Below are positions 19,156-36,726 of a stretch of 64,000 bases of DNA, one piece after another (the first letter of the stretch is position 1; the number at the start of each line of letters is the position of its first letter). Under the pieces are notes generated by a model. That model did no database searches. It was not told where the DNA came from and was given only the letters and a program-made list of their open reading frames with translations. The translations under genes and the position numbers were made by a program. This DNA comes from a virus (Duplodnaviria; Caudoviricetes): IMG/VR virus record IMGVR_UViG_3300046786_000293, positions 274,511 through 338,510 of that record. One strand, 5' to 3'.

Positions 19156-19886
19156 TACTTAGTTTGTGCAGGTAAGATATAGTTGTAGTCAGCAATACCG
19201 CTGTCTACAGTAATCATTGCGGCACCTTCGTCACTGATTTTAAATGTCTTGTCTCCAGGCAAACTTAAAATACTGATGACAACTCCTACAGGCCATGCCC
19301 ACGCTTTAGTAAGATTTCCACTAACACCAGTTTGAAACACAAAGTTACCAGCATGGCTACTATGATCCCCGAAGAAGAATTTCAATTCCCCGTTTTCTGT
19401 TTTAGCAATAAATGTGTTTTCTTCGCTATTGGCACTAGCTTGGAAACGTAGACGTTGAATACTAGCATTTGTTGGCACAATATCAACACTCCACTTAACG
19501 CCTTTGAACTTAACAGTCTTGAGTTTGTCGTTAACAATCTCTGCACTCATAAAACGATAGTCGTTCTTAAAATCGCCTGCTTTGTTTTCAAAGTGTACAC
19601 CGACTGGAATCTTATCTCCGTTTTTGTCTTGTTTGTTAACAGTAATGCTGGCATCTTCTTTATATTCTGGAATATTAAGAATAGTGTTTAGTTTGCTCAG
19701 GTTAGGCATGCCAAATGTGCCCACAAACTCTCCTACGACGCCTTTAAATTTGGCTTGTAAAATAACGCTACGATCTTCAGCAATTGCTTCTAGCGCAGTT
19801 TCATTTTCTGTACCTGTAATTTTAACTAGGTCGATTACGCCTAGATTATGTGTATGCTGTACAATGTCTAATAGATGGTCTTTCAT
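19155..19886 (-). CDS. probable sliding clamp / DNA polymerase processivity factor
   Basis: 243 aa with a two-domain alpha/beta pattern ending YNYILPA; near the DNA polymerase; RBS GGAG. Confidence 0.55.
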   Translation of the reverse strand: MKDHLLDIVQHTHNLGVIDLVKITGTENETALEAIAEDRSVILQAKFKGVVGEFVGTFGMPNLSKLNTILNIPEYKEDASITVNKQDKNGDKIPVGVHFENKAGDFKNDYRFMSAEIVNDKLKTVKFKGVKWSVDIVPTNASIQRLRFQASANSEENTFIAKTENGELKFFFGDHSSHAGNFVFQTGVSGNLTKAWAWPVGVVISILSLPGDKTFKISDEGAAMITVDSGIADYNYILPAQTK

Positions 19887-26342: not shown

Positions 26343-26777
26343 TTATTTTAAACTAGAACGTAACATCCATGCATGTTTGTCATGAGCGTCCATGCGCTCT
26401 GCCAAGAAGTTGCTTAAGCCATGCTTGCCTTCGCGTTCGGATAAGTCATAGACTAGTTTTAGTACTCTAACAATTTTTCCGCTGTCTTCTAATAGTTCCG
26501 CTACCATTGCTTCTTTTGGTGGAACTTGTGTTTCGTCGTCGATTTGACTTAGCATACTTAGACGACTAAAACTAGCAGGAGTATAACTGCCTAACTTACG
26601 AATATTCTCTCCAAATGGATCGATGCTGTCCAACACTTCTTCGTATATCTTACCAAATAAATCATGATATTCTAAAAAGTCAGATCCTTCTACGTTGAAG
26701 TGGAAGAAATGTGCTTTTAGATAAAATGCAAATTCTGTACTGTATGCAATTTTCATTGCTTTAATTAGTTCATCCAT
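26343..26777 (-). CDS. dps: Dps / mini-ferritin
   Basis: KAHFFHFNVEG..FLEYHDLFGKIYEE..DPFGENIR, HAWML. Confidence 0.9.
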   Translation of the reverse strand: MDELIKAMKIAYSTEFAFYLKAHFFHFNVEGSDFLEYHDLFGKIYEEVLDSIDPFGENIRKLGSYTPASFSRLSMLSQIDDETQVPPKEAMVAELLEDSGKIVRVLKLVYDLSEREGKHGLSNFLAERMDAHDKHAWMLRSSLK

Positions 26778-28755
26778 TTTTCTTTACCTTCTTAACTCGT
26801 TGTTGTCCACGTGGTACGCTACCTACAGGGCTAACGAAATTATCATCGCCTATTGTAGCCGCACTAACTGTATGCTTACTTAAATCATATTCAGTAAATG
26901 TGCGTGTTGCTTCTAAATATAATTTTTTAAAGTTTTGGTTGCTTTCACTTAGGAACCAACCATTATTGTCTTTTCTAAGTCCGAACTTGTTGCGTAGTTC
27001 TCCTGCGCTGGTTCCGGATATTTTAAAATAGCGACGACTTTCGCTGATACTATTGTTTGTTCTTTGTAGTCTTTCCAGTACATCTTGTACAGCCAGATCT
27101 AAGTCGCTCATGCTGCCGATTTCGCCGTATTTGTCTACAACGTCCATAATAGCGTCTCCGACTACTTCGTGTCCAAATTGACGTACAACATCCCCCTCTA
27201 TTTGATTTAGTGCCTTGAAAATAGCATCGGCTAAATCTAGTCCGCTGATTGTTTCGCTAATTGGAATGTTTTGAATATCTAATATAGCCGCTGGCTTAGG
27301 ACCACCACCGCCCGAAGTTGGTGGCTTAGGTGGAGTACGTTGTCCGCTTGGTGGTACATACACTTGTTGTGGTGGATATGTTCTGGTAGGTTGTGTGCTT
27401 AGTACAGGAGTAACAGGACCTATACGTTGTTCCGCCATGCTTTGCTTCTGACGCCACACACTGGAATTCTTTAGTCTGCTGGTTGAACCCCAAGCAATGC
27501 TACGACCGTTGAATACAAAAATCAATTTGTTCAACACCACAGCAGGGCTATGTGGATCTGAGCCAAACTCGCCAGAAACATCACCTATCTTACGAGCACC
27601 CTTGGACTCCAAGAACTTCCAAAACTTTTCAACTGCTTTGGCTTTATGCCACTTGGGTTGATCCTCTGGTTTCAAATCACGGTCAATAAAAATGTATCCT
27701 GGGTCTTTGTATCGTGAGCCATCACCACGAGTCCACATTCTCATACCGGGATTTTTATAATCCATTGGATAGTATGGGCTCCCGCTCATTTGTTTATTAA
27801 ATTCAGAGATTAGGCCTCTAATAAAATCAATGGTAGGAGATTCGGTTATAGTATCTTCCGCCACACCTGAATCAGGTCTTGCTGTCATCATGGCACCGGG
27901 ATCAATATTGCCCTTGTTGTCATAACGATGCTGAACACCCTTCTTACCTGCTTTGACTAGTCTTTCCATTGCGGCTTTGGCATCACGATAGTTATCGTGT
28001 GTGGTGGTCTTGATCCAATCACCACTTGAATTGCGATAGCCTACATGAATTTTGCCTTCCGCCACACCTTTAACATCCCAGGTTTTATGGCACTGGTGAC
28101 ATTCCTTCTCGCCATCACTGTATGTTTTTATGTCGGTGGAATGACAACGCGGGCACTGGTATTGTTTGCCCAGACGACCTTCGTTGCCATCATCGCGGAT
28201 TGGGTGTTCTTCGTCATCGTAGCCTTCCGCCACACCTTGACTTTTACTACGATTAAAATCTCTTGTTGCTTGACGACTTCTGGCGCGGGTGCTCGGTTCT
28301 TTGTATGCTCTCCAACGATCAACCTTTGTGCCACACTTGGTGCAATGTAATACACCATCCATGTCATCGTGGATGCTGGTTTCTTGATACTTGCCCTTCT
28401 TACACTTTTCGCAAGTCTGACCAGTCATATCTTTTTGTGTAGAGCCTTCCTCCACACCTTGCTTGGTTCTAATAATCTCACGGTCAAGGGCTCTGATCTC
28501 TGATTTCAAATCAACTAATCTTAACTCACCATTTTCTAATGCTCGTTTAATCCCCAATTTAGTATCAACTAAATCAGTAACTGACATATTTTGAATCTGA
28601 CTTAGTAGGTCTGCATAATACCCAGCATAATAATCATTGGTATCGTCATCGTCTAAACCTTCAGACACACCTTCATTTAAATGTGTGCAATTGCAAGGCG
28701 TTTGCCCGCACACATTACACATATCTCTACTTTCAAAAAAATCAAATAATTTCAT
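26770..28755 (-). CDS. modular putative internal head (cargo) polyprotein with Zn-ribbon cassettes
   Basis: Leader MKLFDFFE; modules separated by GVSE/GVEE/GVAE linkers; several CxxC pairs. Confidence 0.7.
   Translation of the reverse strand: MKLFDFFESRDMCNVCGQTPCNCTHLNEGVSEGLDDDDTNDYYAGYYADLLSQIQNMSVTDLVDTKLGIKRALENGELRLVDLKSEIRALDREIIRTKQGVEEGSTQKDMTGQTCEKCKKGKYQETSIHDDMDGVLHCTKCGTKVDRWRAYKEPSTRARSRQATRDFNRSKSQGVAEGYDDEEHPIRDDGNEGRLGKQYQCPRCHSTDIKTYSDGEKECHQCHKTWDVKGVAEGKIHVGYRNSSGDWIKTTTHDNYRDAKAAMERLVKAGKKGVQHRYDNKGNIDPGAMMTARPDSGVAEDTITESPTIDFIRGLISEFNKQMSGSPYYPMDYKNPGMRMWTRGDGSRYKDPGYIFIDRDLKPEDQPKWHKAKAVEKFWKFLESKGARKIGDVSGEFGSDPHSPAVVLNKLIFVFNGRSIAWGSTSRLKNSSVWRQKQSMAEQRIGPVTPVLSTQPTRTYPPQQVYVPPSGQRTPPKPPTSGGGGPKPAAILDIQNIPISETISGLDLADAIFKALNQIEGDVVRQFGHEVVGDAIMDVVDKYGEIGSMSDLDLAVQDVLERLQRTNNSISESRRYFKISGTSAGELRNKFGLRKDNNGWFLSESNQNFKKLYLEATRTFTEYDLSKHTVSAATIGDDNFVSPVGSVPRGQQRVKKVKKNG
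27855..28674 (-). repeat. five in-frame copies of AGGTGTGGCGGAAG (G-V-A-E linker)
   Basis: Cores at 27855, 28056 and 28224 (exact), 28446 (1 mismatch) and 28659 (degenerate); spacings 201, 168, 222 and 213 nt. Confidence 0.9.
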
Positions 28756-28756
28756 A

Positions 28757-31048
28757 TTACTTTCCTTGCCTTGCCAACATTGCTGCATTACTTAGTGCTG
28801 TTTTTAGAGCAGGTGCAGATTGCGGACTTTCTGCAGCCTTGGCAATTAACGGTGTTAGTGCGCTCATAGACATAGATTCAGGCGAAGTTAATGGTTTATT
28901 ATCGCTTATTTTTGTAACTGCACTGCTTAATGTATTTGTATCTACTTTTGGACCTAGTACACTAGATAAACCGCTCATCGTGCTTTTGGCAGTAGATACA
29001 TCTTGCATTTGGTCTAATTGTTGTTGTTTTACAGCAGCAGGATCTTGTTGTACGCTTGTTTGGCTTGTGATTTGTATATCTGGATCCTGTTTATTAACTG
29101 CGGGATCTTCTACTTCATTTGTCTTTTTGCGATCTAACGCACGTAATTTTTGTGCAAGTTTGGCTATATCTACTGGACCATGTTCACGTTCTTGTTTTTG
29201 TACAAGTTTTTTAACACGAGCAATCATGTTATCAAAATCATCTGGATCATAGCGGCTTGCTATTAAATTGTCATCTTTGTTTTCTTTCATTCCTGAACGA
29301 TACCCTGTGTGTTGTACGTGTACTGGATCATTGGGGAGAAATCCTAAATTATACTTATCACCCTTTGGATCATTTTTTGCCAACCAATTGCGTAATGCCG
29401 CAATTTGGTCTGCTCTTGCGTCAATTGCATGGGCTTTGTGGCTTTCGGGATCTTTAGGAGGAGCCCCGTAAACACCAGGTCTTCCTGCTTTATAATCTCG
29501 ATGAAGTTTTTCCTGTTCTGCGGCTGTTCTTGCTGAGCTAGTAACGGTTATTGGTATACCCGAATCTTTGCTGGCACGTTCTAAATTAGATCTGAATGTT
29601 GAATCTAATTTTGTATAACGATCAGCTTGTTTAGCATCGGCGAATCCGAAGTGACTAGGAGAAGTATCTAATGCTTCGATGTTTTTTGGATTTTTTACGT
29701 GCCAACGACCGTCGTCTGACTTGTAAGTACCGTCAGATTGTTTAGTGAAACTTACGTTAATATTTTTTGTTGGATCTGAAGGATCCTTTACATCTCTGAA
29801 TAACTTGGTTCCTGGAAGATGTCCAGTAATCTTAGTAGGAGTTTGTTGATCTGCAGGAGTAGATGCAGCAGCCGAGGCCTGGCTTGGGACTGTTTGAGTA
29901 GAAGCGGGTGCAGGTGCGGCTGTTTTAGTTGCCGGTTGAGTAGCAGTAGGCGTAGGTGCAGAACTTGCGGCGGTTTTGTTAACAACTCGTTCACCGGGTG
30001 ACAAAGAATCTGCCGTGCTCACCGAAGGAGTTGGTGTTGTACTTCTTGTAGTCGGTGCCGCCGAAGTGTTTGTTCGTGTAGATGTTGCAGGAGTTTGAGC
30101 ATTGGGGTCAACGCTACTACCACCAATTTCACCTCTTCGTACTTTTGCAGCAATTTTTTCTAATGTGTCCCCGGGACTAACTATATGCTTTTCGGTGCTT
30201 CCAGGTAATTTAATTTCTTGCCCGGGATAAATTTTATTAGGATTCTTGATAGCTGGATTACTCTTCCAAACTTCTTGCCAACTTCCTGGAGCAGGATTTT
30301 TTGGCATTTGTGGAATAACTGGAGCAGCAGGTTTGGTTGGTGCTGGCGCGGTTGCAGTTGTGGCTGGGGGCAAAGGTTGTGAAGTAATTTTAACGGGCTC
30401 TGCGACAGGTTTAACTTCTGGACCAGGTACAACGGTGCTAGGTGCAGGTTGTGCTACAGGTTGTTGTGCTACGGTAGTTCCTGGTTCGCGTGCTATACTT
30501 TGATCTCTGTCCGGACTTACTAGATCTGCTGCCTTTGCTACATTAATTTGACCACCAGAGCCAACTGGTGCGCCTGAGCCACTTCTAACTGGCTCACCGG
30601 TACTTGTTTGTACTACAGGGGGATTTTTATCTAAGTATGTTCTTATTTCATCTTGTGTAGCAGGTTGCATACCCATACGTTGACGAACGATAGGATCTAT
30701 TCCTGTATATGTAGGAGTCTTACTGGCATTCCATTGTTTATCTAATTCTGCTTTAGGTAAATCAGGACCACTGGAGGCTCTTAACGCTGCCCAATCATTT
30801 GCTGTATTATTGGTTTCTTCTTTAAACTTATTAAATTTTTCTAATAAGGACCACTCGGTGACTTTTTCTTTAGCAGTATTGTGTAGATCTTTTATTATAC
30901 TTTCTTCGCAGCCACCGACCATTTTAGATTTGGCTTTGCTAGCAGGATCAGTACCTTTCCAGTAGCCGGGAAATTTAGGACCTGTAGATTTTTTAGCAGC
31001 CTTTTCCATGCTATCTACTGCTTCTAAAAGTTTACGCATATTGGTCAT
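28757..31048 (-). CDS. putative virion/ejected protein with permuted LysM and M15 (D-Ala-D-Ala/L-Ala-D-Glu) peptidase domains
   Basis: Leader MTNMRKLLE; NPNKIYPGQEIKLP/VSPGDTLEKIA; VTSSARTAAEQ..SHKAHAID..PVH; long Pro/Thr/Ala linkers. Confidence 0.75.
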   Translation of the reverse strand: MTNMRKLLEAVDSMEKAAKKSTGPKFPGYWKGTDPASKAKSKMVGGCEESIIKDLHNTAKEKVTEWSLLEKFNKFKEETNNTANDWAALRASSGPDLPKAELDKQWNASKTPTYTGIDPIVRQRMGMQPATQDEIRTYLDKNPPVVQTSTGEPVRSGSGAPVGSGGQINVAKAADLVSPDRDQSIAREPGTTVAQQPVAQPAPSTVVPGPEVKPVAEPVKITSQPLPPATTATAPAPTKPAAPVIPQMPKNPAPGSWQEVWKSNPAIKNPNKIYPGQEIKLPGSTEKHIVSPGDTLEKIAAKVRRGEIGGSSVDPNAQTPATSTRTNTSAAPTTRSTTPTPSVSTADSLSPGERVVNKTAASSAPTPTATQPATKTAAPAPASTQTVPSQASAAASTPADQQTPTKITGHLPGTKLFRDVKDPSDPTKNINVSFTKQSDGTYKSDDGRWHVKNPKNIEALDTSPSHFGFADAKQADRYTKLDSTFRSNLERASKDSGIPITVTSSARTAAEQEKLHRDYKAGRPGVYGAPPKDPESHKAHAIDARADQIAALRNWLAKNDPKGDKYNLGFLPNDPVHVQHTGYRSGMKENKDDNLIASRYDPDDFDNMIARVKKLVQKQEREHGPVDIAKLAQKLRALDRKKTNEVEDPAVNKQDPDIQITSQTSVQQDPAAVKQQQLDQMQDVSTAKSTMSGLSSVLGPKVDTNTLSSAVTKISDNKPLTSPESMSMSALTPLIAKAAESPQSAPALKTALSNAAMLARQGK

Positions 31049-33015
31049 TTTATTTTTCTTTTATCGTACGGTACTTTAAAGTCATTGATAAATTCTTTAA
31101 ATTCTTTAACAGCTCCAGGTATACCTCCAGGAGTTATTCTATGTAAACGTTCAATCCAGTCGTCATTTTTTGAACTACCAGATCCTACTCCTGGCCCAGT
31201 ACCTGTTCCTACACCGCCACCGGTACCTCCGCCGGACCCACTGCTTTGTTGTGAATCTTTTTCTTTATCTTTACCAGACGCTGCGGGCGCAAAGGTAGGC
31301 TCGCTTGCTGGTTTTTGCTGTGGTGTTGCTTGTGGCTTAACAGGCTCAGGTTGCGGCTTTACTTGAGGTTTAGTAGGCTCAGGTTGCGGTTTTACTGGTT
31401 CAGGCTCAACGGCAATGTCTGCGGGTTTTGTAACTGGAGGCAAATCTTCTGGTCTCCATATTTCGACAGGCATCGGTACAGTTTGTGATGTTGGTTCTGC
31501 GGCAGGTTCTTGATCTACTTTGCCTTGCCCTTGTCCTTCTTTACCGCCGCCGCCTGTAGTCATTGAAGCACCCACAGGCACAGCCGCTGGGCTCCACATT
31601 TTTTTATCGCCTTGCATTTTGGGCGGTAAAGGTTCGTCAGCTCTTGACGTCGATGTTGGAGGTTTAATTGGCTGGTCATCCCCTGGTCTTGTTTGCATTA
31701 ATTCTTGATCTCGGCGACGGGCCTGTGCTTGTGTGCGTGCGGGATTAATTCGAATTGGATTGGCTATAATAGGAGCATTGGCTGAGGTTGTTGCTCCCGG
31801 TGCAACTTGAGAAGGCTCATTAACAACTTTTAATCTAGGTTTTGGCCCTGCAGGAACTTCTGCACCTTGTGGCATAGCTGAAGGTTGTCCCGCTCTTTGA
31901 TAAGCAGGAACTTCAACATTTGCTGGTGTGCGAGGCACAGGTCCCGGAGTAACTCTTGGTCCACTTACTACAGCCCCGCCAGCTCCGCCTGGCGGAAACT
32001 CTAAAGGTATTGTAGTTGGTTTAAAAGGACCTTTGGTTTGTTCTTTTAACTTTCGGCTGCTAATAGGAAAGTTTGTACTTAAAAATTCTTCAAATTCTTC
32101 AGCAACCTTTTTAGTTGCTTGCTCTTTGATCGCTCCAGGTATACCACCCGGTGTTATTCTATGTAAACGTTCAATCCAATCCCCGTCGGGAGTTTTATAA
32201 TATGTTGGTTCTTGTTGTGCAACTGCTACCGGCGCCGCAGCTAATTGCCCAGGTCTACCCGGACCTGATGGTTCGTTAGGTCTTGTTGCTAGTTGTGTCT
32301 GCGGGGCAAGTTCGGGCTCGGTGTCGGGCTGCGATGATGTTGCTATACCACGCTGTTGTAATAAATTTAATTCTGCTTTTAAATTGGGATCATCGGGAGT
32401 CTTTTCGAGTTCACGTCGGACGTCCTTGGCATACTGTTGATCAGCAAATGATGGTTTGTTCCCACCGCCTGCGGCAGTAGAATACACGTTTGAGTATTCA
32501 CTTCCTGCGCCAACTTTTACACGAGGTTGTGGCTTTGTTAAAGTAGATACTGTGGCAGATTGTTTTGGTATGCTAGGTTCATTTGCTGCAACCGGTGCAG
32601 CCTTTGCAAATTTAGTGTCCGGTCCAGTACCGCCAATTACACCCAACGGTTGCGGCGGAGTTGTACCAGCAGCCTTTCGCATATAGGCCGGTTCTTTAGC
32701 ACCTTTTGGATCTAACCATGGTTGCTTAGGTGTATATGCTGGAGTTTCTGGATCTATAGAGGGCGGTAATGTAAGTGGTAATGATTTTTGCCCAGGTGCA
32801 GGTGTTGTTGCCCCGGTAGCAGGCTTCTGTGTTGGCTCGACAGGTTTTGTTAATTGCTGACCCATCATATTGAATGCTTTATTACCGGCTGGTATGTTAG
32901 TTAATGTACCTATGGGTAACTTTTGTTGAGAGGGAAAATCATAGACTTTTTTCGCCGCCTGTCCTTGTTCGGCAAGTTTATCTAATGACTCTAACAAACG
33001 ACGGATGTCTGACAT
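31045..33015 (-). CDS. Pro/Gly-rich putative internal head protein
   Basis: Leader MSDIRRLLE; low complexity; duplicated DWIERLHRITPGGIPGA(I/V)KE. Confidence 0.7.
   Translation of the reverse strand: MSDIRRLLESLDKLAEQGQAAKKVYDFPSQQKLPIGTLTNIPAGNKAFNMMGQQLTKPVEPTQKPATGATTPAPGQKSLPLTLPPSIDPETPAYTPKQPWLDPKGAKEPAYMRKAAGTTPPQPLGVIGGTGPDTKFAKAAPVAANEPSIPKQSATVSTLTKPQPRVKVGAGSEYSNVYSTAAGGGNKPSFADQQYAKDVRRELEKTPDDPNLKAELNLLQQRGIATSSQPDTEPELAPQTQLATRPNEPSGPGRPGQLAAAPVAVAQQEPTYYKTPDGDWIERLHRITPGGIPGAIKEQATKKVAEEFEEFLSTNFPISSRKLKEQTKGPFKPTTIPLEFPPGGAGGAVVSGPRVTPGPVPRTPANVEVPAYQRAGQPSAMPQGAEVPAGPKPRLKVVNEPSQVAPGATTSANAPIIANPIRINPARTQAQARRRDQELMQTRPGDDQPIKPPTSTSRADEPLPPKMQGDKKMWSPAAVPVGASMTTGGGGKEGQGQGKVDQEPAAEPTSQTVPMPVEIWRPEDLPPVTKPADIAVEPEPVKPQPEPTKPQVKPQPEPVKPQATPQQKPASEPTFAPAASGKDKEKDSQQSSGSGGGTGGGVGTGTGPGVGSGSSKNDDWIERLHRITPGGIPGAVKEFKEFINDFKVPYDKRKIK
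31103..32181 (-). repeat. ~59 nt direct repeat (31103-31161 and 32123-32181), 1020 nt apart
   Basis: Both copies encode DWIERLHRITPGGIPGA(V/I)KE; differences are mostly synonymous. Confidence 0.9.
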
Positions 33016-33785
33016 TACTTTGCCTTTGTTTGCTTTTGCTTGTATGTACCGCCAAACAACGAACCTACTTTGGCTTTGTTCTTTGCTGGGGGATTCACTA
33101 CAGTGGCCACGCTGCCTGCTGACATTTCATTCACTGTTGCTTCCGCCACACCTTTCCAGTCAGTTTCGCCGCCCAAATCATCAATATACATTGCTTGTTT
33201 GATAATGTTCAGTAGATACTTCTTTGCTTCTGGTGTAGGTGCCATCTTAGCATATTGCTTTGCTGTGTAGTCGTCACCATTCTCTAACGCATCTCTAACA
33301 TCTTGCTCAAGGCGTGTTGTGTCAGGATCCCATCCTTCTGCCACACCTTGTTCACGCTCTGCCTGACGCTTTGCCCAACGCTCTTTGTTGCGCTGAACTT
33401 GTTGAGGACTTGCTTTCTTTTCTTTGCTTAGGTCACGATGCAGTGCTTTACCTAGTGCGCTAGTATGCGGATTCTTTTCAGACTCCGCCACAGGCATAGC
33501 ATCGCCAACTACGGCAACTACTTCTTCAGCAGGACCACCGCTCATTAATTGATATTCTAAGTGTTCACGGACGGTGTTTAGATAGTCTGCAGCCAGGGTA
33601 ATTTTACTGCTTACCCAACCTTCTAAGCCTTGTTGTTCACTAACATGGCGTAGTAGTTTGTGTAATGCAATTGCGTCTTCTGCAGCATGATACAGTTCTT
33701 TTCGAGCCATTTGCACTTCATGATCTAAGTGCATTTCGTGTGCATCTTCGGCAATGCCTTCATTTAAAAAATCTAAACTTTTCAT
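33015..33785 (-). CDS. modular putative internal head protein
   Basis: Leader MKSLDFLNEGIAE; PVAE, QGVAEG and KGVAEA linkers. Confidence 0.72.
   Translation of the reverse strand: MKSLDFLNEGIAEDAHEMHLDHEVQMARKELYHAAEDAIALHKLLRHVSEQQGLEGWVSSKITLAADYLNTVREHLEYQLMSGGPAEEVVAVVGDAMPVAESEKNPHTSALGKALHRDLSKEKKASPQQVQRNKERWAKRQAEREQGVAEGWDPDTTRLEQDVRDALENGDDYTAKQYAKMAPTPEAKKYLLNIIKQAMYIDDLGGETDWKGVAEATVNEMSAGSVATVVNPPAKNKAKVGSLFGGTYKQKQTKAK
33140..33348 (-). repeat. two further copies of the AGGTGTGGC(G/A)GAAG linker repeat
   Basis: 33140-33153 exact, 33335-33348 one mismatch; 195 nt apart. Confidence 0.9.
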
Positions 33786-33814: not shown

Positions 33815-34123
33815 TTCGCTGATAACGAATCGACCTTTTGATGGGGATTCCACAATAATATCGTCTACCATTAAGTTGGTGAAGTAAAACCCTCTAAAAC
33901 TTGGATCTAGTGATTCTAATTTGACTTCATGATTCCCTGCAGTTAAATTAACCCATATGTTTTCTTTTACAAATTGTCCATTAGTTGTAGTAGGAGGTTT
34001 TGCATTAGACCAAATATATGTACGTTCAGTAATTAAATCACCGTCTAAATAAATTCTATAAACTGGATTTTCGTTGCCGTGTTTATGACAAAAAACATCT
34101 ATATTGATTTTATATTCTTTCAT
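33812..34123 (-). CDS. hypothetical beta-rich protein
   Basis: MKEYKINID start with an ATGA overlap to the upstream stop. Confidence 0.65.
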   Translation of the reverse strand: MKEYKINIDVFCHKHGNENPVYRIYLDGDLITERTYIWSNAKPPTTTNGQFVKENIWVNLTAGNHEVKLESLDPSFRGFYFTNLMVDDIIVESPSKGRFVISE

Positions 34124-36726
34124 TTTTCTCTGCCTCGACGCATATTTGCTTGCCAATGTGCTAATTGTTTTTTACGGGGACTAGCAGTTTTTGAACGTGT
34201 AATTTTATCTAGAGTAGACAAACTTGCTTTTTTGGGAATACCATGTCTTGCTGAATCGCCTTTGTCTTGGGGATTACGACCGTCAGCAAAGTTTTCTGCC
34301 ACGTTGAATGTTGGATCTACTTTTTGACGCGGCATATTTTTAGGCTGATTAGGATCAACGGGATCTATATCTGTAGTAGTTAGTCCAGTTTTTTCTAAAT
34401 CTTTAATATACTTGTGTTCTTCTTCTTCGCTACCAAAAGAAAACATGGTGCTAGGAGGTCCCTTTCCAAAGTCATGTTTGCCTAACCCTTTTAAGTTACT
34501 AATATGCTGTCCTAGCTTATACCAATCATAAACGTCCGATACATCTACTCTGACAGATCCTTGAGGCATAGTGGGTTTAAATTCTGGGCCGTAGGGAGTG
34601 TCGTTTGGGTGTCTATCTTCGTTCTTCTTTCTGCCAGCACAGTGAGCTTTTTGACTAAAGCCTTTGGGATCGGAGCAATTAATAGAACTCTTATATTCTT
34701 TGCTCCACGATTCGTCTAACTCTAACGGCTTAGATTTAATAGCGTTGGGATACTTCTTGTTGAAGTGCCGCATAATAATACCAGCGACCCAATGTGCTTC
34801 GTTTTCAATTGGACTTCCAGTATCACCTGCACCGTCATACATTTTACCTTGTTCGTATTGTTTGAAGTGTACCATTTCATGTGCTAGTGTTCTTAGAATA
34901 TCTACAGGGTGCCTATCGGCAATGCCAAGATATATTTTTTCTTCTTCATTAACAAAACGACCGAATGTTGCTTGCCCGTCGTTGGATTTGATGTGCGGTT
35001 GTAAAACAATATGTGGGATTTCTTTAAGTTTAAGTTCTTTCATTGCCAAGGGCATAAACTCTTTAATCATCGCCATCATATCTTCTTCAGTAACACTACG
35101 ATTATTTTTTGCTTCTTCTTTAACAACATTGCCTAAAAATGTACGGGCAAATGTTTTACACATTTTTACAATAGCAGGATTACGTGTTTGCATAACATGA
35201 AATGTTTTATTCATGTCTTCTTCTTGTGTAGGGTCTTTATATCCGCAATATACTTTGTGGCAGTCTGTATCGTTAATGATCTCTGTGCAACTGTCTCCGT
35301 AACGATCGTCCATCGGGTGACAGCATGGACTTAGAGTTGTAAGAATAATACTGCCTGCAGGTACACGACCGTGCTCTGCTTCGTAGTTCATTATTGCGGC
35401 ACGTTCGGCATGTATACGTTTGTCCTTACCGTCGTCGAAGTAGTTAATACCAAAGGCGAAATTATTATCAGGATCAAGTACACAGGCTGCAACCATGCCA
35501 AATGCATCGGCGTTTAGTTTTTGTCCCTCTACTACCATTTCGCATAAGTTAACTAGGATATGATCCAATTTGTCAAAGTTTTTAATTTCAAAATCTTCGG
35601 GGTTTATTCGCGCTGAGAAATCTTCTGCCAGTCTAAAATCACGTAGCATATTTTTTGGTGTGCGAGGCTTAACATCTTTAGTAATGCTCATCGAATATCT
35701 TGGGTCTTTGGCCATCTTCTTATTCTTAGCCACAACACCGACTCCGGCAGCATCCTCTGACATTTCTTGCTTTAATGCACGAATAACATCTCCTGCGAGC
35801 TGAGTTAAACTACGTTGGGGTCCTGCTTGAAAAACTTTTTGGGCTAAGTTTTCAACATACTCGTTGCCAAATTTTTCAAATATACCAGGTTGCATTTCAC
35901 GCAAAAATTCTAATATCTGTGCAGTTCTATCTTGGTCGAATTCTTTCCAATCGTGATAATGTTTTTCGTCTGTTTCTTCTATGTCAGCAATTTCATGAAA
36001 TACCCTTGCACCGCTAATAGGACTAGAACTATAGTTACTGTCAACTTGTCCTATGTCTTCACTGACTGCGGCAGGAATCTTATTAAAAATATGTACTAGT
36101 TCAGACGTAGCACGGCCATATAATCCTGCCAAAAATTCTTTTGAGGATTCCGGATCATTCCGTACCATATTCCACAAATTACGACATTCTGTGCCGTGAC
36201 TCACATCATATGTTTTGCCTTTGATGTTTACCGCTTTTTTAATTTCGGGGATAACAATCACATAACCGTGTTGGTCGGCAGTCATCGGGGCGTGACTTTC
36301 ATCCCATGTTTTGTAATAGCTTGCGCTGCCTGCAGGCTTGATTACGTTTCCGTCTTTGTCTTTTTGATCACGCTTTGTAAATGTATCGGGATTTAAGCGA
36401 TCTTTATCGGGGGCACCTACAGCAGTAACAAATATAGTACTGGAAGGATCAAATCCTGCAGGTAGCTTGTACATTTGATTTGTTTCAATGATGCGATCAC
36501 CGGGCACGCCGGCTGCTGTCATTAATTGGTATTTGTCGGAAAAGTTAAATGGACTTTTAGCGCTAGACTGGTCATTACTAGTTAAAATGTAGACGCTGTC
36601 GCGACCAAATTGCTTTTGTAATTTTGCAAAAACTCCGGCGTGCCCTTGGTGAAAAGGCTGAAAACGTCCAGGATAAGTTACAACAACTTGTGGCTTACCA
36701 GCCTCATATAATTCGTGTGCGTACAT
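34120..36726 (-). CDS. multidomain putative cargo polyprotein: HIGH nucleotidyltransferase, Zn-deaminase and HExxH metallopeptidase
   Basis: YPGRFQPFHQGH; HAE...SPC(x11)C; LAHEMVH; domains delimited by VSE, MSE, LAE, VTEE, LDE and VAE. Confidence 0.75.
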   Translation of the reverse strand: MYAHELYEAGKPQVVVTYPGRFQPFHQGHAGVFAKLQKQFGRDSVYILTSNDQSSAKSPFNFSDKYQLMTAAGVPGDRIIETNQMYKLPAGFDPSSTIFVTAVGAPDKDRLNPDTFTKRDQKDKDGNVIKPAGSASYYKTWDESHAPMTADQHGYVIVIPEIKKAVNIKGKTYDVSHGTECRNLWNMVRNDPESSKEFLAGLYGRATSELVHIFNKIPAAVSEDIGQVDSNYSSSPISGARVFHEIADIEETDEKHYHDWKEFDQDRTAQILEFLREMQPGIFEKFGNEYVENLAQKVFQAGPQRSLTQLAGDVIRALKQEMSEDAAGVGVVAKNKKMAKDPRYSMSITKDVKPRTPKNMLRDFRLAEDFSARINPEDFEIKNFDKLDHILVNLCEMVVEGQKLNADAFGMVAACVLDPDNNFAFGINYFDDGKDKRIHAERAAIMNYEAEHGRVPAGSIILTTLSPCCHPMDDRYGDSCTEIINDTDCHKVYCGYKDPTQEEDMNKTFHVMQTRNPAIVKMCKTFARTFLGNVVKEEAKNNRSVTEEDMMAMIKEFMPLAMKELKLKEIPHIVLQPHIKSNDGQATFGRFVNEEEKIYLGIADRHPVDILRTLAHEMVHFKQYEQGKMYDGAGDTGSPIENEAHWVAGIIMRHFNKKYPNAIKSKPLELDESWSKEYKSSINCSDPKGFSQKAHCAGRKKNEDRHPNDTPYGPEFKPTMPQGSVRVDVSDVYDWYKLGQHISNLKGLGKHDFGKGPPSTMFSFGSEEEEHKYIKDLEKTGLTTTDIDPVDPNQPKNMPRQKVDPTFNVAENFADGRNPQDKGDSARHGIPKKASLSTLDKITRSKTASPRKKQLAHWQANMRRGREK

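What the first reader, a model, noticed from the sequence alone, without database searches (positions are those of the whole stretch)
27855..33348. Linker repeat conserved at the DNA level (AGGTGTGGCGGAAG): a possible cassette-shuffling site
Seen: seven in-frame copies in two genes (four exact 14-mers, two with one mismatch, one degenerate), bounding unrelated modules of 56-74 codons. The wobble bases are fixed: Val is GTG in all seven copies and in two related junctions (33483, 34296), and Ala is mostly GCG. Unrelated VAE tripeptides in this AT-rich genome use GTT or GTA (e.g. near 32100, 23980, 38215). Selection on the peptide alone would not keep GC-ending synonymous codons. Inference: the repeat is both a protease site and a recombination crossover point that lets cargo cassettes be added, lost or swapped in frame, like an integron for virion effectors.
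Basis: partly seen in the sequence, partly recalled or inferred. Interest (0 to 1): 0.88.

Follow-up and report, generated by a model that had tools for sequence, protein, structure and literature searches.

The report
Frozen linker between swappable phage modules
A giant freshwater phage and its relatives string small, unrelated cargo proteins together with a short cutting site that is spelled with the same 18 DNA letters everywhere, and modules are exchanged between phages at these sites, so the linker probably also serves as a recombination handle.

Summary
The window is the end of a 338-kb T4-related jumbo phage from freshwater metagenomes. It encodes a gp23-type capsid protein and a gp21-type head protease.

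Two genes on the minus strand (26770-28788 and 33015-33785) are strings of unrelated 49-142-residue modules. The modules are joined by x-G-V-A-E|G, encoded as CAA GGT GTG GCG GAA GGC. GTG makes up 12% of Val codons and GCG 7.7% of Ala codons in this genome.

- **Spread:** the same 18-mer occurs in at least 119 IMG/VR stretches.
- **Deep conservation:** it also occurs in a relative whose synonymous sites are saturated against this genome. There, only 41% of codons are identical at identical residues.
- **Module exchange:** module order and content differ between relatives at a syntenic locus. Homology breakpoints pile up at linkers (40% against 5.6% expected). In other samples, contigs carrying the same module diverge at the linker edge.
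- **Not an integron:** no tyrosine or serine recombinase was found, and no circles were seen.

My reading: these are capsid-cargo polyproteins cut by the head protease, with linker DNA kept uniform by homology-dependent module exchange. Cleavage and crossover within the linker are inferred, not shown. I found no published description. First-stage readers of this scan noted the same QGVAEG linker in two other genomes.

The parts
26770..28788 (-). Polyprotein gene 1 (ORF of 672 aa). The likely true start is the ATG at 28755 (MKLFDFF...), just after the stop codon of the upstream gene. Layout: a 32-aa leader ending G-V-S-E, then modules of 71, 74 (Zn ribbon), 56 (Zn ribbon), 67 and 142 aa, then a 219-aa Pro-rich C-terminal part.
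   Evidence: start site is inference
33015..33785 (-). Polyprotein gene 2 (256 aa). Layout: a 13-aa T4-CTS-like leader MKSLDFLNEGIAE|D, an 88-aa conserved N-terminal module, a 49-aa basic module, a 65-aa module and a 41-aa tail.
28657..28674 (-). Linker E-G-V-S-E|G (GAA GGT GTG TCT GAA GGT), at the end of the gene 1 leader
28444..28461 (-). Linker Q-G-V-E-E|G (CAA GGT GTG GAG GAA GGC)
   Evidence: contig loose end at 28463 in run X4
28222..28239 (-). Consensus linker Q-G-V-A-E|G (CAA GGT GTG GCG GAA GGC)
   Evidence: loose ends at 28239 in runs X4 and X5; boundary between a 90.1% and a 97.9% identity block against L012
28054..28071 (-). Linker K-G-V-A-E|G (AAA GGT GTG GCG GAA GGC)
27853..27870 (-). 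Linker S-G-V-A-E|D (TCA GGT GTG GCG GAA GAT)
   Evidence: loose end at 27868 in run X4
27427..27444 (-). Decayed linker Q-S-M-A-E|Q (CAA AGC ATG GCG GAA CAA). DNA homology to relatives stops here, at about 27442.
33333..33350 (-). Linker Q-G-V-A-E|G (CAA GGT GTG GCA GAA GGA)
   Evidence: a 155-nt X4 contig spans exactly 33340-33494
33138..33155 (-). Linker K-G-V-A-E|A (AAA GGT GTG GCG GAA GCA)
   Evidence: loose ends at 33140 (X3) and 33136 (X5)
33480..33497 (-). Decayed linker M-P-V-A-E|S (ATG CCT GTG GCG GAG TCT). It is the upstream boundary of the widely shared 49-aa basic module.
33744..33761 (-). Leader cleavage-type site E-G-I-A-E|D (GAA GGC ATT GCC GAA GAT). Same peptide type, but not the frozen DNA.
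26343..26777 (-). Dps/ferritin-like gene. It is the conserved downstream anchor of the variable polyprotein locus in relatives (40-71% aa identity, 66-76% DNA identity).
28757..33015 (-). Two large genes between the polyproteins: 763 aa with LysM, and 656 aa Pro-rich. Their start and stop codons overlap those of their neighbours, and both have N-terminal L-x-E sites. Probable co-packaged proteins.
   Evidence: packaging is inference
34120..36726 (-). Polyvalent protein (nucleotidyltransferase + deaminase + HExxH region). Its pieces occur separately and in other orders in relatives, some inside frozen-linker polyproteins. It carries the N-V-A-E|N junction near 34296.

Best explanation
The two genes, plus a third at genome 139301-140686, encode beads-on-a-string cargo polyproteins of a T4-related jumbo phage. 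A short N-terminal leader resembles the T4 capsid-targeting sequence and probably takes the chain into the prohead core. There the gp21-type head protease would cut after the Glu of each x-G-V-A-E|G linker. That would release many small, unrelated proteins (Zn ribbons, basic peptides and, in relatives, a deaminase, a ParB-like and a sulfotransferase domain). These would be packed with the DNA and probably injected.

The linker is also the place where modules are gained, lost and exchanged between co-infecting relatives. Its 18 nt of near-perfect identity give in-frame microhomology to the phage's general, T4-type recombination and replication machinery. Any junction made there yields a cleavable, functional product.

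Frequent exchange would keep all linkers recent copies of one another (concerted evolution). This is why GTG and GCG, which are rare in this genome, persist while synonymous sites elsewhere are saturated. Linkers that stop taking part would decay by point mutation, mostly G to A.

**Shown:** the DNA-level conservation, the common descent of the linkers, module mosaicism, and breakpoints at linkers.
**Inferred:** cleavage, packaging and injection, crossover inside the linker, and exchange as the cause of the codon conservation.
For: **1. Frozen DNA.**
- In the window, 7/7 linkers use GTG and 4/5 use GCG, against 12% and 7.7% genome-wide.
- In relatives found by protein similarity of module interiors (L008-L039), 64 GVAE linkers use GGT 60, GTG 57, GCG 55 and GAA 59. 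Elsewhere in the same ORFs the figures are 50%, 16%, 8.9% and 75%.
- Information content falls to about 0 outside positions -3 to +14.

**2. Common descent of the linkers.** Variant linkers are single steps from the consensus: TCG, ACG, GAG, GTA, GCA.

**3. Conservation across saturated divergence.**
- G002 (343 kb, GC 47%) shares 167/301 ORFs with this genome at a median 47% aa identity.
- Only 40.8% of 19,850 identical residues use the same codon.
- GTG/GTG occurs at 8.7% of conserved Val and GCG/GCG at 0.9% of conserved Ala.
- G002 nevertheless has four copies of the linker core GGT GTG GCG GAA (two in the full 18-mer, two preceded by GAA).

**4. Module shuffling at a syntenic locus.**
- The Dps-like anchor is conserved downstream, but module content and order differ. 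Modules of gene 2 are fused to modules of gene 1, or appear in reversed order.
- In the closest complete relative, G003 (MCP 90%), none of this phage's modules are present between the same two flanking genes.

**5. Breakpoints at linkers.**
- Window blastn HSPs start and stop at linkers.
- Over 91 polyprotein ORFs, 40% of 431 informative homology ends lie within 12 nt of a linker centre, against 5.6% for random placement (largest 9%).
- Adjacent modules differ in identity to one relative: 97.9% against 90.1%.

**6. Horizontal movement.** Modules are 78-98% DNA-identical to contigs whose anchor gene is only 66-68% identical.

**7. Natural populations.**
- In freshwater and estuary runs, contigs carrying the same module diverge at linker edges: 27868, 28239 (twice), 28463, 33136, 33140.
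- Short contigs span exactly one module.

**8. Protease context.**
- A gp21-family protease, a scaffold protein and a gp23 MCP are present.
- T4 gp21 cuts after L/I-x-E, and T4 internal proteins share only a cleaved targeting leader (PMC9026906, PMC3012670).
- A RecA/UvsX-like gene is present.
- T4-type recombination needs only small patches of homology, and PeSL repeats mediate shuffling in T4-type phages (PMC2839356).
Against: - No proteomic or biochemical evidence shows that the linkers are cut or that the products are in virions.
- Val at P3 is not the canonical L/I of T4 gp21.
- Eighteen nt is shorter than the homology that classical recombination uses efficiently.
- Breakpoints at linkers could partly reflect selection of viable junctions after random recombination, rather than crossover within the linker.
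- No joints or circles were seen, though only assembled contigs were available.
- Metagenome contigs can be chimeric across shared modules, so individual module orders may be unreliable. The branching itself is real.
- Two relatives that carry the linker (G002, G004) gave no gp23 or gp21 hit in the quick search.
- Second-order selection for 'evolvability' is weak. The argument needs frequent exchange or selfish spread of modules.
Confidence: 0.6

Rival explanations
1. Passive hitch-hiking plus a viability filter. Recombination between co-infecting phages is random or illegitimate, and only junctions at module boundaries survive. On this reading the linker DNA looks frozen only because linker-flanked modules have spread recently through the clade. 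The 18-mer has no role in the crossover.
For: - Modules are far more similar between genomes than the anchor gene is, so recent spread is real.
- Linker variants look like neutral decay, mostly G to A transitions.
- About half of the homology ends are not at recognised linkers.
Against: - The same 18-mer flanks dozens of unrelated module families.
- It occurs in genomes whose synonymous sites are saturated against each other.
- For unrelated modules to acquire identical flanking DNA, joining must have taken place within or at the linker.
- Contig divergence points fall within a few nt of the linker edges.
Confidence: 0.15
2. The synonymous sites are held by an RNA or translation function. An example would be a pause at each module boundary to help co-translational folding or core binding, caused by the rare GTG and GCG codons and the Shine-Dalgarno-like AGGTG. 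Another would be a site bound by an RNA-binding factor. On this reading, module exchange is incidental.
For: - GTG and GCG are among the rarest Val and Ala codons in this genome.
- AGGTG is complementary to the anti-SD sequence (own knowledge).
- Conservation holds in a relative of different GC content, 47%.
Against: - GGT, GAA and CAA are the commonest codons, not rare ones.
- The equally rare GTC is almost never used, and the alternatives are one-step transitions.
- AGGTG would not explain the third bases of GTG and GCG.
- Other [VIL]-A-E sites in the same proteins use ordinary codons.
- No conserved flanking sequence exists that could form a structure.
Confidence: 0.1
3. A dedicated site-specific system. 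An unrecognised nuclease or recombinase, encoded by the phage or by a module, recognises the 18-nt site and cuts or exchanges cassettes there. This would be a true integron-like or homing-like in-frame cassette system.
For: - The block of strongly conserved DNA has sharp edges, like a protein recognition site.
- Divergence points lie at the linker edges.
- Most modules (84 of 90) have no known family, so an unknown enzyme cannot be excluded.
Against: - The genome has no tyrosine or serine recombinase.
- No nuclease family was found among the 90 modules scanned.
- The site is not palindromic and all copies are direct.
- No joints or circles were seen (weak evidence).
- Such a nuclease would also cut the phage's own genes.
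Confidence: 0.1

Closest known systems
T4 internal proteins IPI-III/Alt, with the capsid targeting sequence, processed by gp21 (PMC3012670, PMC9026906, PMC12373910)
   Same: - The phage is T4-related and has a gp21-family protease.
- The cargo is small, diverse and non-structural.
- A short N-terminal leader ends in a hydrophobic-x-Glu cleavage site (MKSLDFLNEGIAE|D here, I-A-E in T4).
- In T4, the only element shared between otherwise unrelated cargo proteins is the leader.
   Different: - T4 IPs are separate genes, each with its own leader. Here many cargo units are translated as one chain and separated by internal cleavage sites.
- Here the conserved element is an internal linker frozen at the DNA level.
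- Neither cleavage nor packaging has been shown here.
PeSL promoter/stem-loop cassettes mediating modular shuffling in T4-type phages (PMC2839356, PMC4122927)
   Same: Short conserved DNA repeats flank variable, non-essential units in hyperplastic regions of T4-type genomes. Insertions, deletions and replacements have their ends in the repeats. General phage recombination acting on short homology is the proposed mechanism.
   Different: - PeSLs are intergenic regulatory elements that move whole genes. Here the repeat is an in-frame 18-nt coding linker that moves protein modules within genes.
- Mini-circles were demonstrated for PeSLs but not here.
Glycine-rich motifs (GRMs) separating hypervariable segments in gp38 adhesins of T-even phages (PMC3157838)
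   Same: Conserved in-frame motifs alternate with exchangeable variable segments, and recombinants with crossovers between the segments have been obtained.
   Different: GRMs form the structural core of a single domain and keep a fixed order. Here the linkers join independent modules whose order and number vary, and the linkers look like protease sites.
Polyvalent proteins of phages and conjugative elements (PMC5512222)
   Same: These are multi-module proteins delivered with the DNA and thought to be processed into separate effectors. The neighbouring 868-aa protein (nucleotidyltransferase, deaminase, zincin-like region) fits this class. Deaminase and ParB_N modules occur in relatives' linker polyproteins.
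   Different: - That work proposes processing by an in-chain metallopeptidase and does not mention linkers: the word occurs 0 times in its text.
- Most modules here are tiny and lack any known family.
- The DNA-level conservation of the junction is the new element.
Integrons (IntI plus attI/attC cassettes) and shufflons (Rci plus sfx repeats)
   Same: As a functional analogy, an array of exchangeable cassettes is bounded by a repeated site.
   Different: - No tyrosine recombinase is present.
- The site is not an imperfect palindrome.
- The cassettes are in-frame protein modules, not promoterless genes.
- All repeats are direct, so inversion as in shufflons is not possible.
Polymorphic toxin loci (CdiA VENN, Rhs DPxGL) with orphan cassettes (own knowledge; mentioned as an analogy in PMC5512222)
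   Same: A conserved peptide-coding motif marks the border where variable modules are swapped by homologous recombination.
   Different: Those loci have a single border with one variable C-terminal toxin plus immunity gene. Here many serial borders occur in one chain, with no immunity genes.

Membership tests
Substrates of a T4-type (gp21, Peptidase_S77) prohead protease / capsid-targeted internal proteins | The phage encodes a gp21-family prohead protease with a T4-type head module | tested here: met
   PF03420 hit at genome 192411-192863 (E = 4e-27). A coiled-coil scaffold and a gp23 MCP (PF07068, E = 6e-99) lie next to it.
Substrates of a T4-type (gp21, Peptidase_S77) prohead protease / capsid-targeted internal proteins | Cleavage motif L/I-x-E, cut after Glu | tested here: inconclusive
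   The linkers are V-A-E (or V-S-E, V-E-E), and the leaders end in I-A-E or V-S-E. Val is not the canonical P3 residue (PMC9026906). No cleavage data exist.
Substrates of a T4-type (gp21, Peptidase_S77) prohead protease / capsid-targeted internal proteins | Short N-terminal targeting leader removed by the protease | tested here: inconclusive
   MKSLDFLNEGIAE|D and MKLFDFF...LNEGVSE|G resemble the 10-residue T4 CTS in form only. The N-terminal part of gene 2 is conserved in relatives at 35-64%.
Substrates of a T4-type (gp21, Peptidase_S77) prohead protease / capsid-targeted internal proteins | Processed products present in the virion and injected | not testable with these tools
   The phage is uncultured, so no proteome exists.
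Polyvalent proteins (Iyer et al. 2017) | One polypeptide carrying 2-15 effector domains typical of the class (e.g. deaminase, ParB-like, MPTase) | tested here: inconclusive
   The criterion is met by the neighbouring 868-aa protein and by some relatives' modules (deaminase, ParB_N). The two genes in question carry no recognised domain apart from weak Zn-ribbon hits.
PeSL-type recombination cassettes | Repeated conserved DNA motif flanking variable units, with indel and replacement end points in the motif | tested here: met
PeSL-type recombination cassettes | The motif is an intergenic promoter plus terminator stem-loop | tested here: not met
   The motif is in frame inside coding sequence, and no conserved flanks or hairpin are present.
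PeSL-type recombination cassettes | Excised mini-circles formed between neighbouring repeats | tested here: inconclusive
   No joints were seen in four runs, but these are assembled contigs, which drop rare forms.
Integron | IntI tyrosine recombinase next to the array | tested here: not met
   PF00589 has no hit in the 97%-complete genome. Resolvase PF00239 also has none.
Integron | attC-type imperfect inverted repeats at cassette ends | tested here: not met
   The 18-mer is not palindromic, and nothing is conserved outside it.

The most novel reading that the evidence does not exclude
The 18-nt linker is a dedicated exchange site. On this reading, a clade of giant phages runs a true in-frame cassette system for injected proteins. 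A still unrecognised sequence-specific nuclease or recombinase, or selfish modules that home into empty linkers, would move protein-coding modules between polyproteins and between phages. One sequence would serve as both the protease site and the DNA recognition site.
Probability: 0.12. Interest if true: 0.92.

Novelty: new variant of a known kind. Interest (0 to 1): 0.76.

Why it matters
- **How anti-host arsenals diversify.** This would show how giant phages vary their injected proteins. Instead of swapping genes, they swap protein modules inside polyproteins. The standard junction guarantees reading frame, cleavage and delivery.
- **Synonymous-site conservation.** It is a clear natural case in which synonymous sites stay fixed across genomes that are otherwise saturated. 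The most likely cause is recombination rather than translation.
- **A search handle.** The 18-mer retrieves hundreds of unknown small proteins that are probably delivered into host cells. These are candidates for defence inhibitors.
- **An engineering idea.** It suggests a design rule for loading foreign proteins into T4-like capsids as cleavable strings.

Tried and rejected
- **Cultured relatives.** megablast of the locus and tblastn of gene 2 against 50,697 phage records found nothing useful. The nearest cultured phages by MCP are Vibrio phage 2.275.O, PA5oct, GAP32 and Phosso. They carry the 12-mer only at control level, so no proteome can be borrowed.
- **Tandem-duplicate origin of the modules.** Rejected. 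There is no similarity between window modules beyond the linker residues.
- **Chi-like or genome-wide DNA signal.** Rejected. Elsewhere in the genome, GTGGCGG is mostly in the Gly-Gly reading frame (GT GGC GG), and the longer words occur only in linkers.
- **Integron or shufflon.** Rejected for lack of a recombinase and of palindromic or inverted sites.
- **Internal translation starts or ribosome hopping between identical linkers.** Considered and set aside. No start codon follows the SD-like AGGTG at a usable distance, and no stop codon or hairpin follows the linkers (sequence).
- **AlphaFold.** A single-sequence model of gene 1 residues 12-460 gave mean pLDDT 43. It was useless for domain borders, so I did no fold searches.
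- **Ascertainment bias.** Loci L040 onward were found through the DNA motif itself, so I took codon statistics only from L008-L039, which were found by protein similarity.
- **Non-independence.** The binomial p-values ignore relatedness of contigs and are only indicative.
- **False members.** Some ORFs in my 91-ORF 'polyprotein' set are not polyproteins. For example, two portal proteins carry two chance G-[VIL]-x-E motifs.
Full report
**What is in the window**

The 14-mer AGGTGTGGCGGAAG occurs seven times at two mismatches or fewer, always on the minus strand. Shuffles expect 0.20. All copies lie in one reading frame of two ORFs, 26770-28788 (672 aa) and 33015-33785 (256 aa). There they read x-GGT-GTG-xxx-GAA-x, giving x-G-V-[A/E/S]-E-x. 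The copies cut the proteins into modules of 71, 74, 56, 67 and 65 residues.

Two decayed copies (Q-S-M-A-E|Q at 27427-27444 and M-P-V-A-E|S at 33480-33497) add further borders. The flanks share no DNA similarity beyond about 18 nt. The modules show no detectable similarity to one another.

**Genome context**

The window is the last 64 kb of a 338,510-bp IMG/VR virus record with 39% GC. The genome encodes three T4-type head genes side by side:
- a gp21-family prohead protease (PF03420);
- a coiled-coil scaffold protein;
- a gp23-family major capsid protein.

The capsid protein is 65-70% identical to those of Vibrio phage 2.275.O, PA5oct, GAP32 and Phosso. The phage is therefore a T4-related jumbo phage. 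Runs that hold the locus are freshwater, estuary and aquatic metagenomes.

**Is the codon bias real?**

Genome-wide, GTG is 12.0% of Val codons and GCG is 7.7% of Ala codons.
- The linkers use GTG 7/7 times and GCG 4/5 times (p = 3.6e-7 and 1.6e-4).
- The 32 other V-A-E tripeptides in the genome mostly use GTT/GTA and GCA/GCT.
- The only further near-copy of the 14-mer in the genome lies in a third linker-bearing protein (139301-140686). That protein has Q-S-V-A-E|G and Q-G-L-A-E|G in the same DNA dress. Its other [IL]-A-E sites use ordinary codons.

**Relatives**

I found relatives through peptide patterns taken from module interiors, so the search was blind to linker codons. They carry 64 G-V-A-E linkers:

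| Codon | In linkers | Elsewhere in the same ORFs |
|---|---|---|
| GGT | 60/64 | 50% |
| GTG | 57/64 | 16% |
| GCG | 55/64 | 8.9% |
| GAA | 59/64 | 75% |

The indicative p-values are 8e-38 and 2e-48, but the contigs are not independent.

Conservation covers CAA GGT GTG GCG GAA GGC and stops sharply on both sides. Variant linkers are single steps from this consensus (TCG, ACG, GAG, GTA, GCA). The linkers therefore share descent as DNA rather than converging as peptides. The four nearest cultured phages lack it.

**Depth of the conservation**

G002 is a 343-kb relative with 47% GC. It shares 167 of 301 ORFs with this genome at a median 47% amino-acid identity.
- At 19,850 identical residues, only 40.8% of codons are identical. 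This fraction barely changes with protein identity, so synonymous sites are saturated.
- Conserved Val is GTG in both genomes in 8.7% of cases.
- Conserved Ala is GCG in both in 0.9% of cases.
- G002 nevertheless has four copies of the linker core GGT GTG GCG GAA, two of them in the full 18-mer and two preceded by GAA.

The linker's synonymous sites are therefore either under direct constraint or are continually renewed.

**Shuffling**

The gene downstream of polyprotein 1 is a Dps/ferritin-like gene. It is a conserved anchor in many relatives, at 40-71% amino-acid identity, while the polyprotein in front of it differs in content and order.
- Modules of gene 2 are fused to modules of gene 1 in L008, L011, L012 and L021.
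- The two gene 2 modules occur in reversed order in L008 and L021.
- The 65-aa module has a different upstream neighbour in each of four genomes.
- In G003, the closest complete relative (capsid protein 90% identical), the flanking genes on both sides are conserved. None of this phage's modules is present between them, and a different 810-aa linker polyprotein sits there.

**Breakpoints**

Window-versus-relative blastn blocks begin and end at linkers:

| Window block | Identity to relatives |
|---|---|
| 33492-33334 | 81-93% in about 28 loci (roughly 20 different contigs) |
| 33353-33128 | 88-92% |
| 28463-28221 | 90.1% (L012) |
| 28246-28057 | 97.9% (L012) |
| 28070-27854 | 80% |
| 27865-27430 | 84-88% |

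The anchor gene is only 66-68% identical in the same contigs. Over 91 non-redundant ORFs, 40% of 431 informative homology ends lie within 12 nt of a linker centre. Random placement gives 5.6% (largest 9%).

Contigs from four independent runs that carry the same modules diverge at 27868, 28239 (two runs), 28463, 33136 and 33140. All of these are linker edges. Short contigs span exactly one module, at 33340-33494 and 27442-27868. Assembly chimeras at an 18-nt repeat are unlikely, but chimeras across shared modules are possible, so single module orders deserve caution.

**Mechanism**

Protease cleavage is inferred from three things:
- the gp21 homologue;
- the known L/I-x-E|specificity of T4 gp21 (PMC9026906);
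- the leaders resembling the T4 capsid-targeting sequence.

The nature of the cargo is inferred from T4 internal proteins. These share only their leader and inhibit host restriction systems (PMC3012670, PMC12373910). It is also inferred from polyvalent-protein domains (deaminase, ParB_N, sulfotransferase) found among relatives' modules, although 84 of 90 modules have no Pfam family.

I infer recombination at the linker from the breakpoint data. I also infer it from the logic that identical DNA flanking dozens of unrelated modules must have been joined there. The genome has a RecA/UvsX-like gene but no tyrosine or serine recombinase. The integron analogy is therefore functional only. The best precedent is PeSL-mediated shuffling in T4-type phages, attributed to a recombination system that needs only small patches of homology (PMC2839356).

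**Rivals**

I cannot exclude three alternatives, but each fits the data less well:
- passive hitch-hiking plus a viability filter;
- an RNA or translation role (rare codons, SD-like AGGTG);
- a dedicated site-specific enzyme.

A Chi-like signal is rejected.

**Prior knowledge**

Six full-text literature searches returned results. They found the T4 CTS, PeSL, gp38 GRM and polyvalent-protein literature, but no description of a protease-site linker frozen at the DNA level. First readers of this scan noted the same QGVAEG linker in two other genomes. A follow-up described an analogous frozen linker with a different sequence in another virus. I treat these as leads only.

Noticed in passing
window 26343-26777 (-): A Dps/ferritin-like gene (PF00210, E = 2e-17; phrog_3636 'DNA binding protein') sits directly downstream of the polyprotein. 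It is the most conserved neighbour of these loci in relatives. A Dps next to presumed head-internal proteins is unexplained.
   Followed up: partly
window 31103-31161 and 32123-32181 (gene 31045-33015, -): The 656-aa Pro-rich protein contains a 59-nt direct repeat (88% identical, 1020 nt apart). It encodes DWIERLHRITPGGIPGA[IV]KE twice. Its function is unknown.
   Followed up: partly
genome 139301-140686 (-), outside the window: A third linker-bearing protein (462 aa) has Q-S-V-A-E|G and Q-G-L-A-E|G in the frozen DNA form, plus three ordinary [IL]-A-E sites.
   Followed up: partly
window 34120-36726 (-) and loci L075, L088, L111, L265: Pieces of the 868-aa nucleotidyltransferase/deaminase/HExxH protein occur separately, in other orders and on either side of the Dps gene in relatives. 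A 35-residue piece (about 668-704) recurs at 63-79% identity in many loci.
   Followed up: partly
G002 (343 kb, CheckV 99%) and G004 (262 kb): These relatives carry the frozen linker, but the quick genome search gave no hit to gp23 (PF07068) or gp21 (PF03420), or to this phage's capsid protein. G002 otherwise shares 167 ORFs with this genome. Either the head genes are too diverged for the first-look filter or they are missing from the records.
   Followed up: partly
window 28757-31048 (-): The 763-aa protein has a LysM domain (PF01476) and long Pro/Thr/Ala-rich spacers. Its C-terminal third is 54-71% identical to ORFs next to polyproteins in L116 and L136.
   Followed up: no
loci L052, L078, L109, L116: Some relatives' polyproteins contain internal duplicates of a module or module piece (31-89% identity). 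This fits unequal exchange between linkers within one gene.
   Followed up: no
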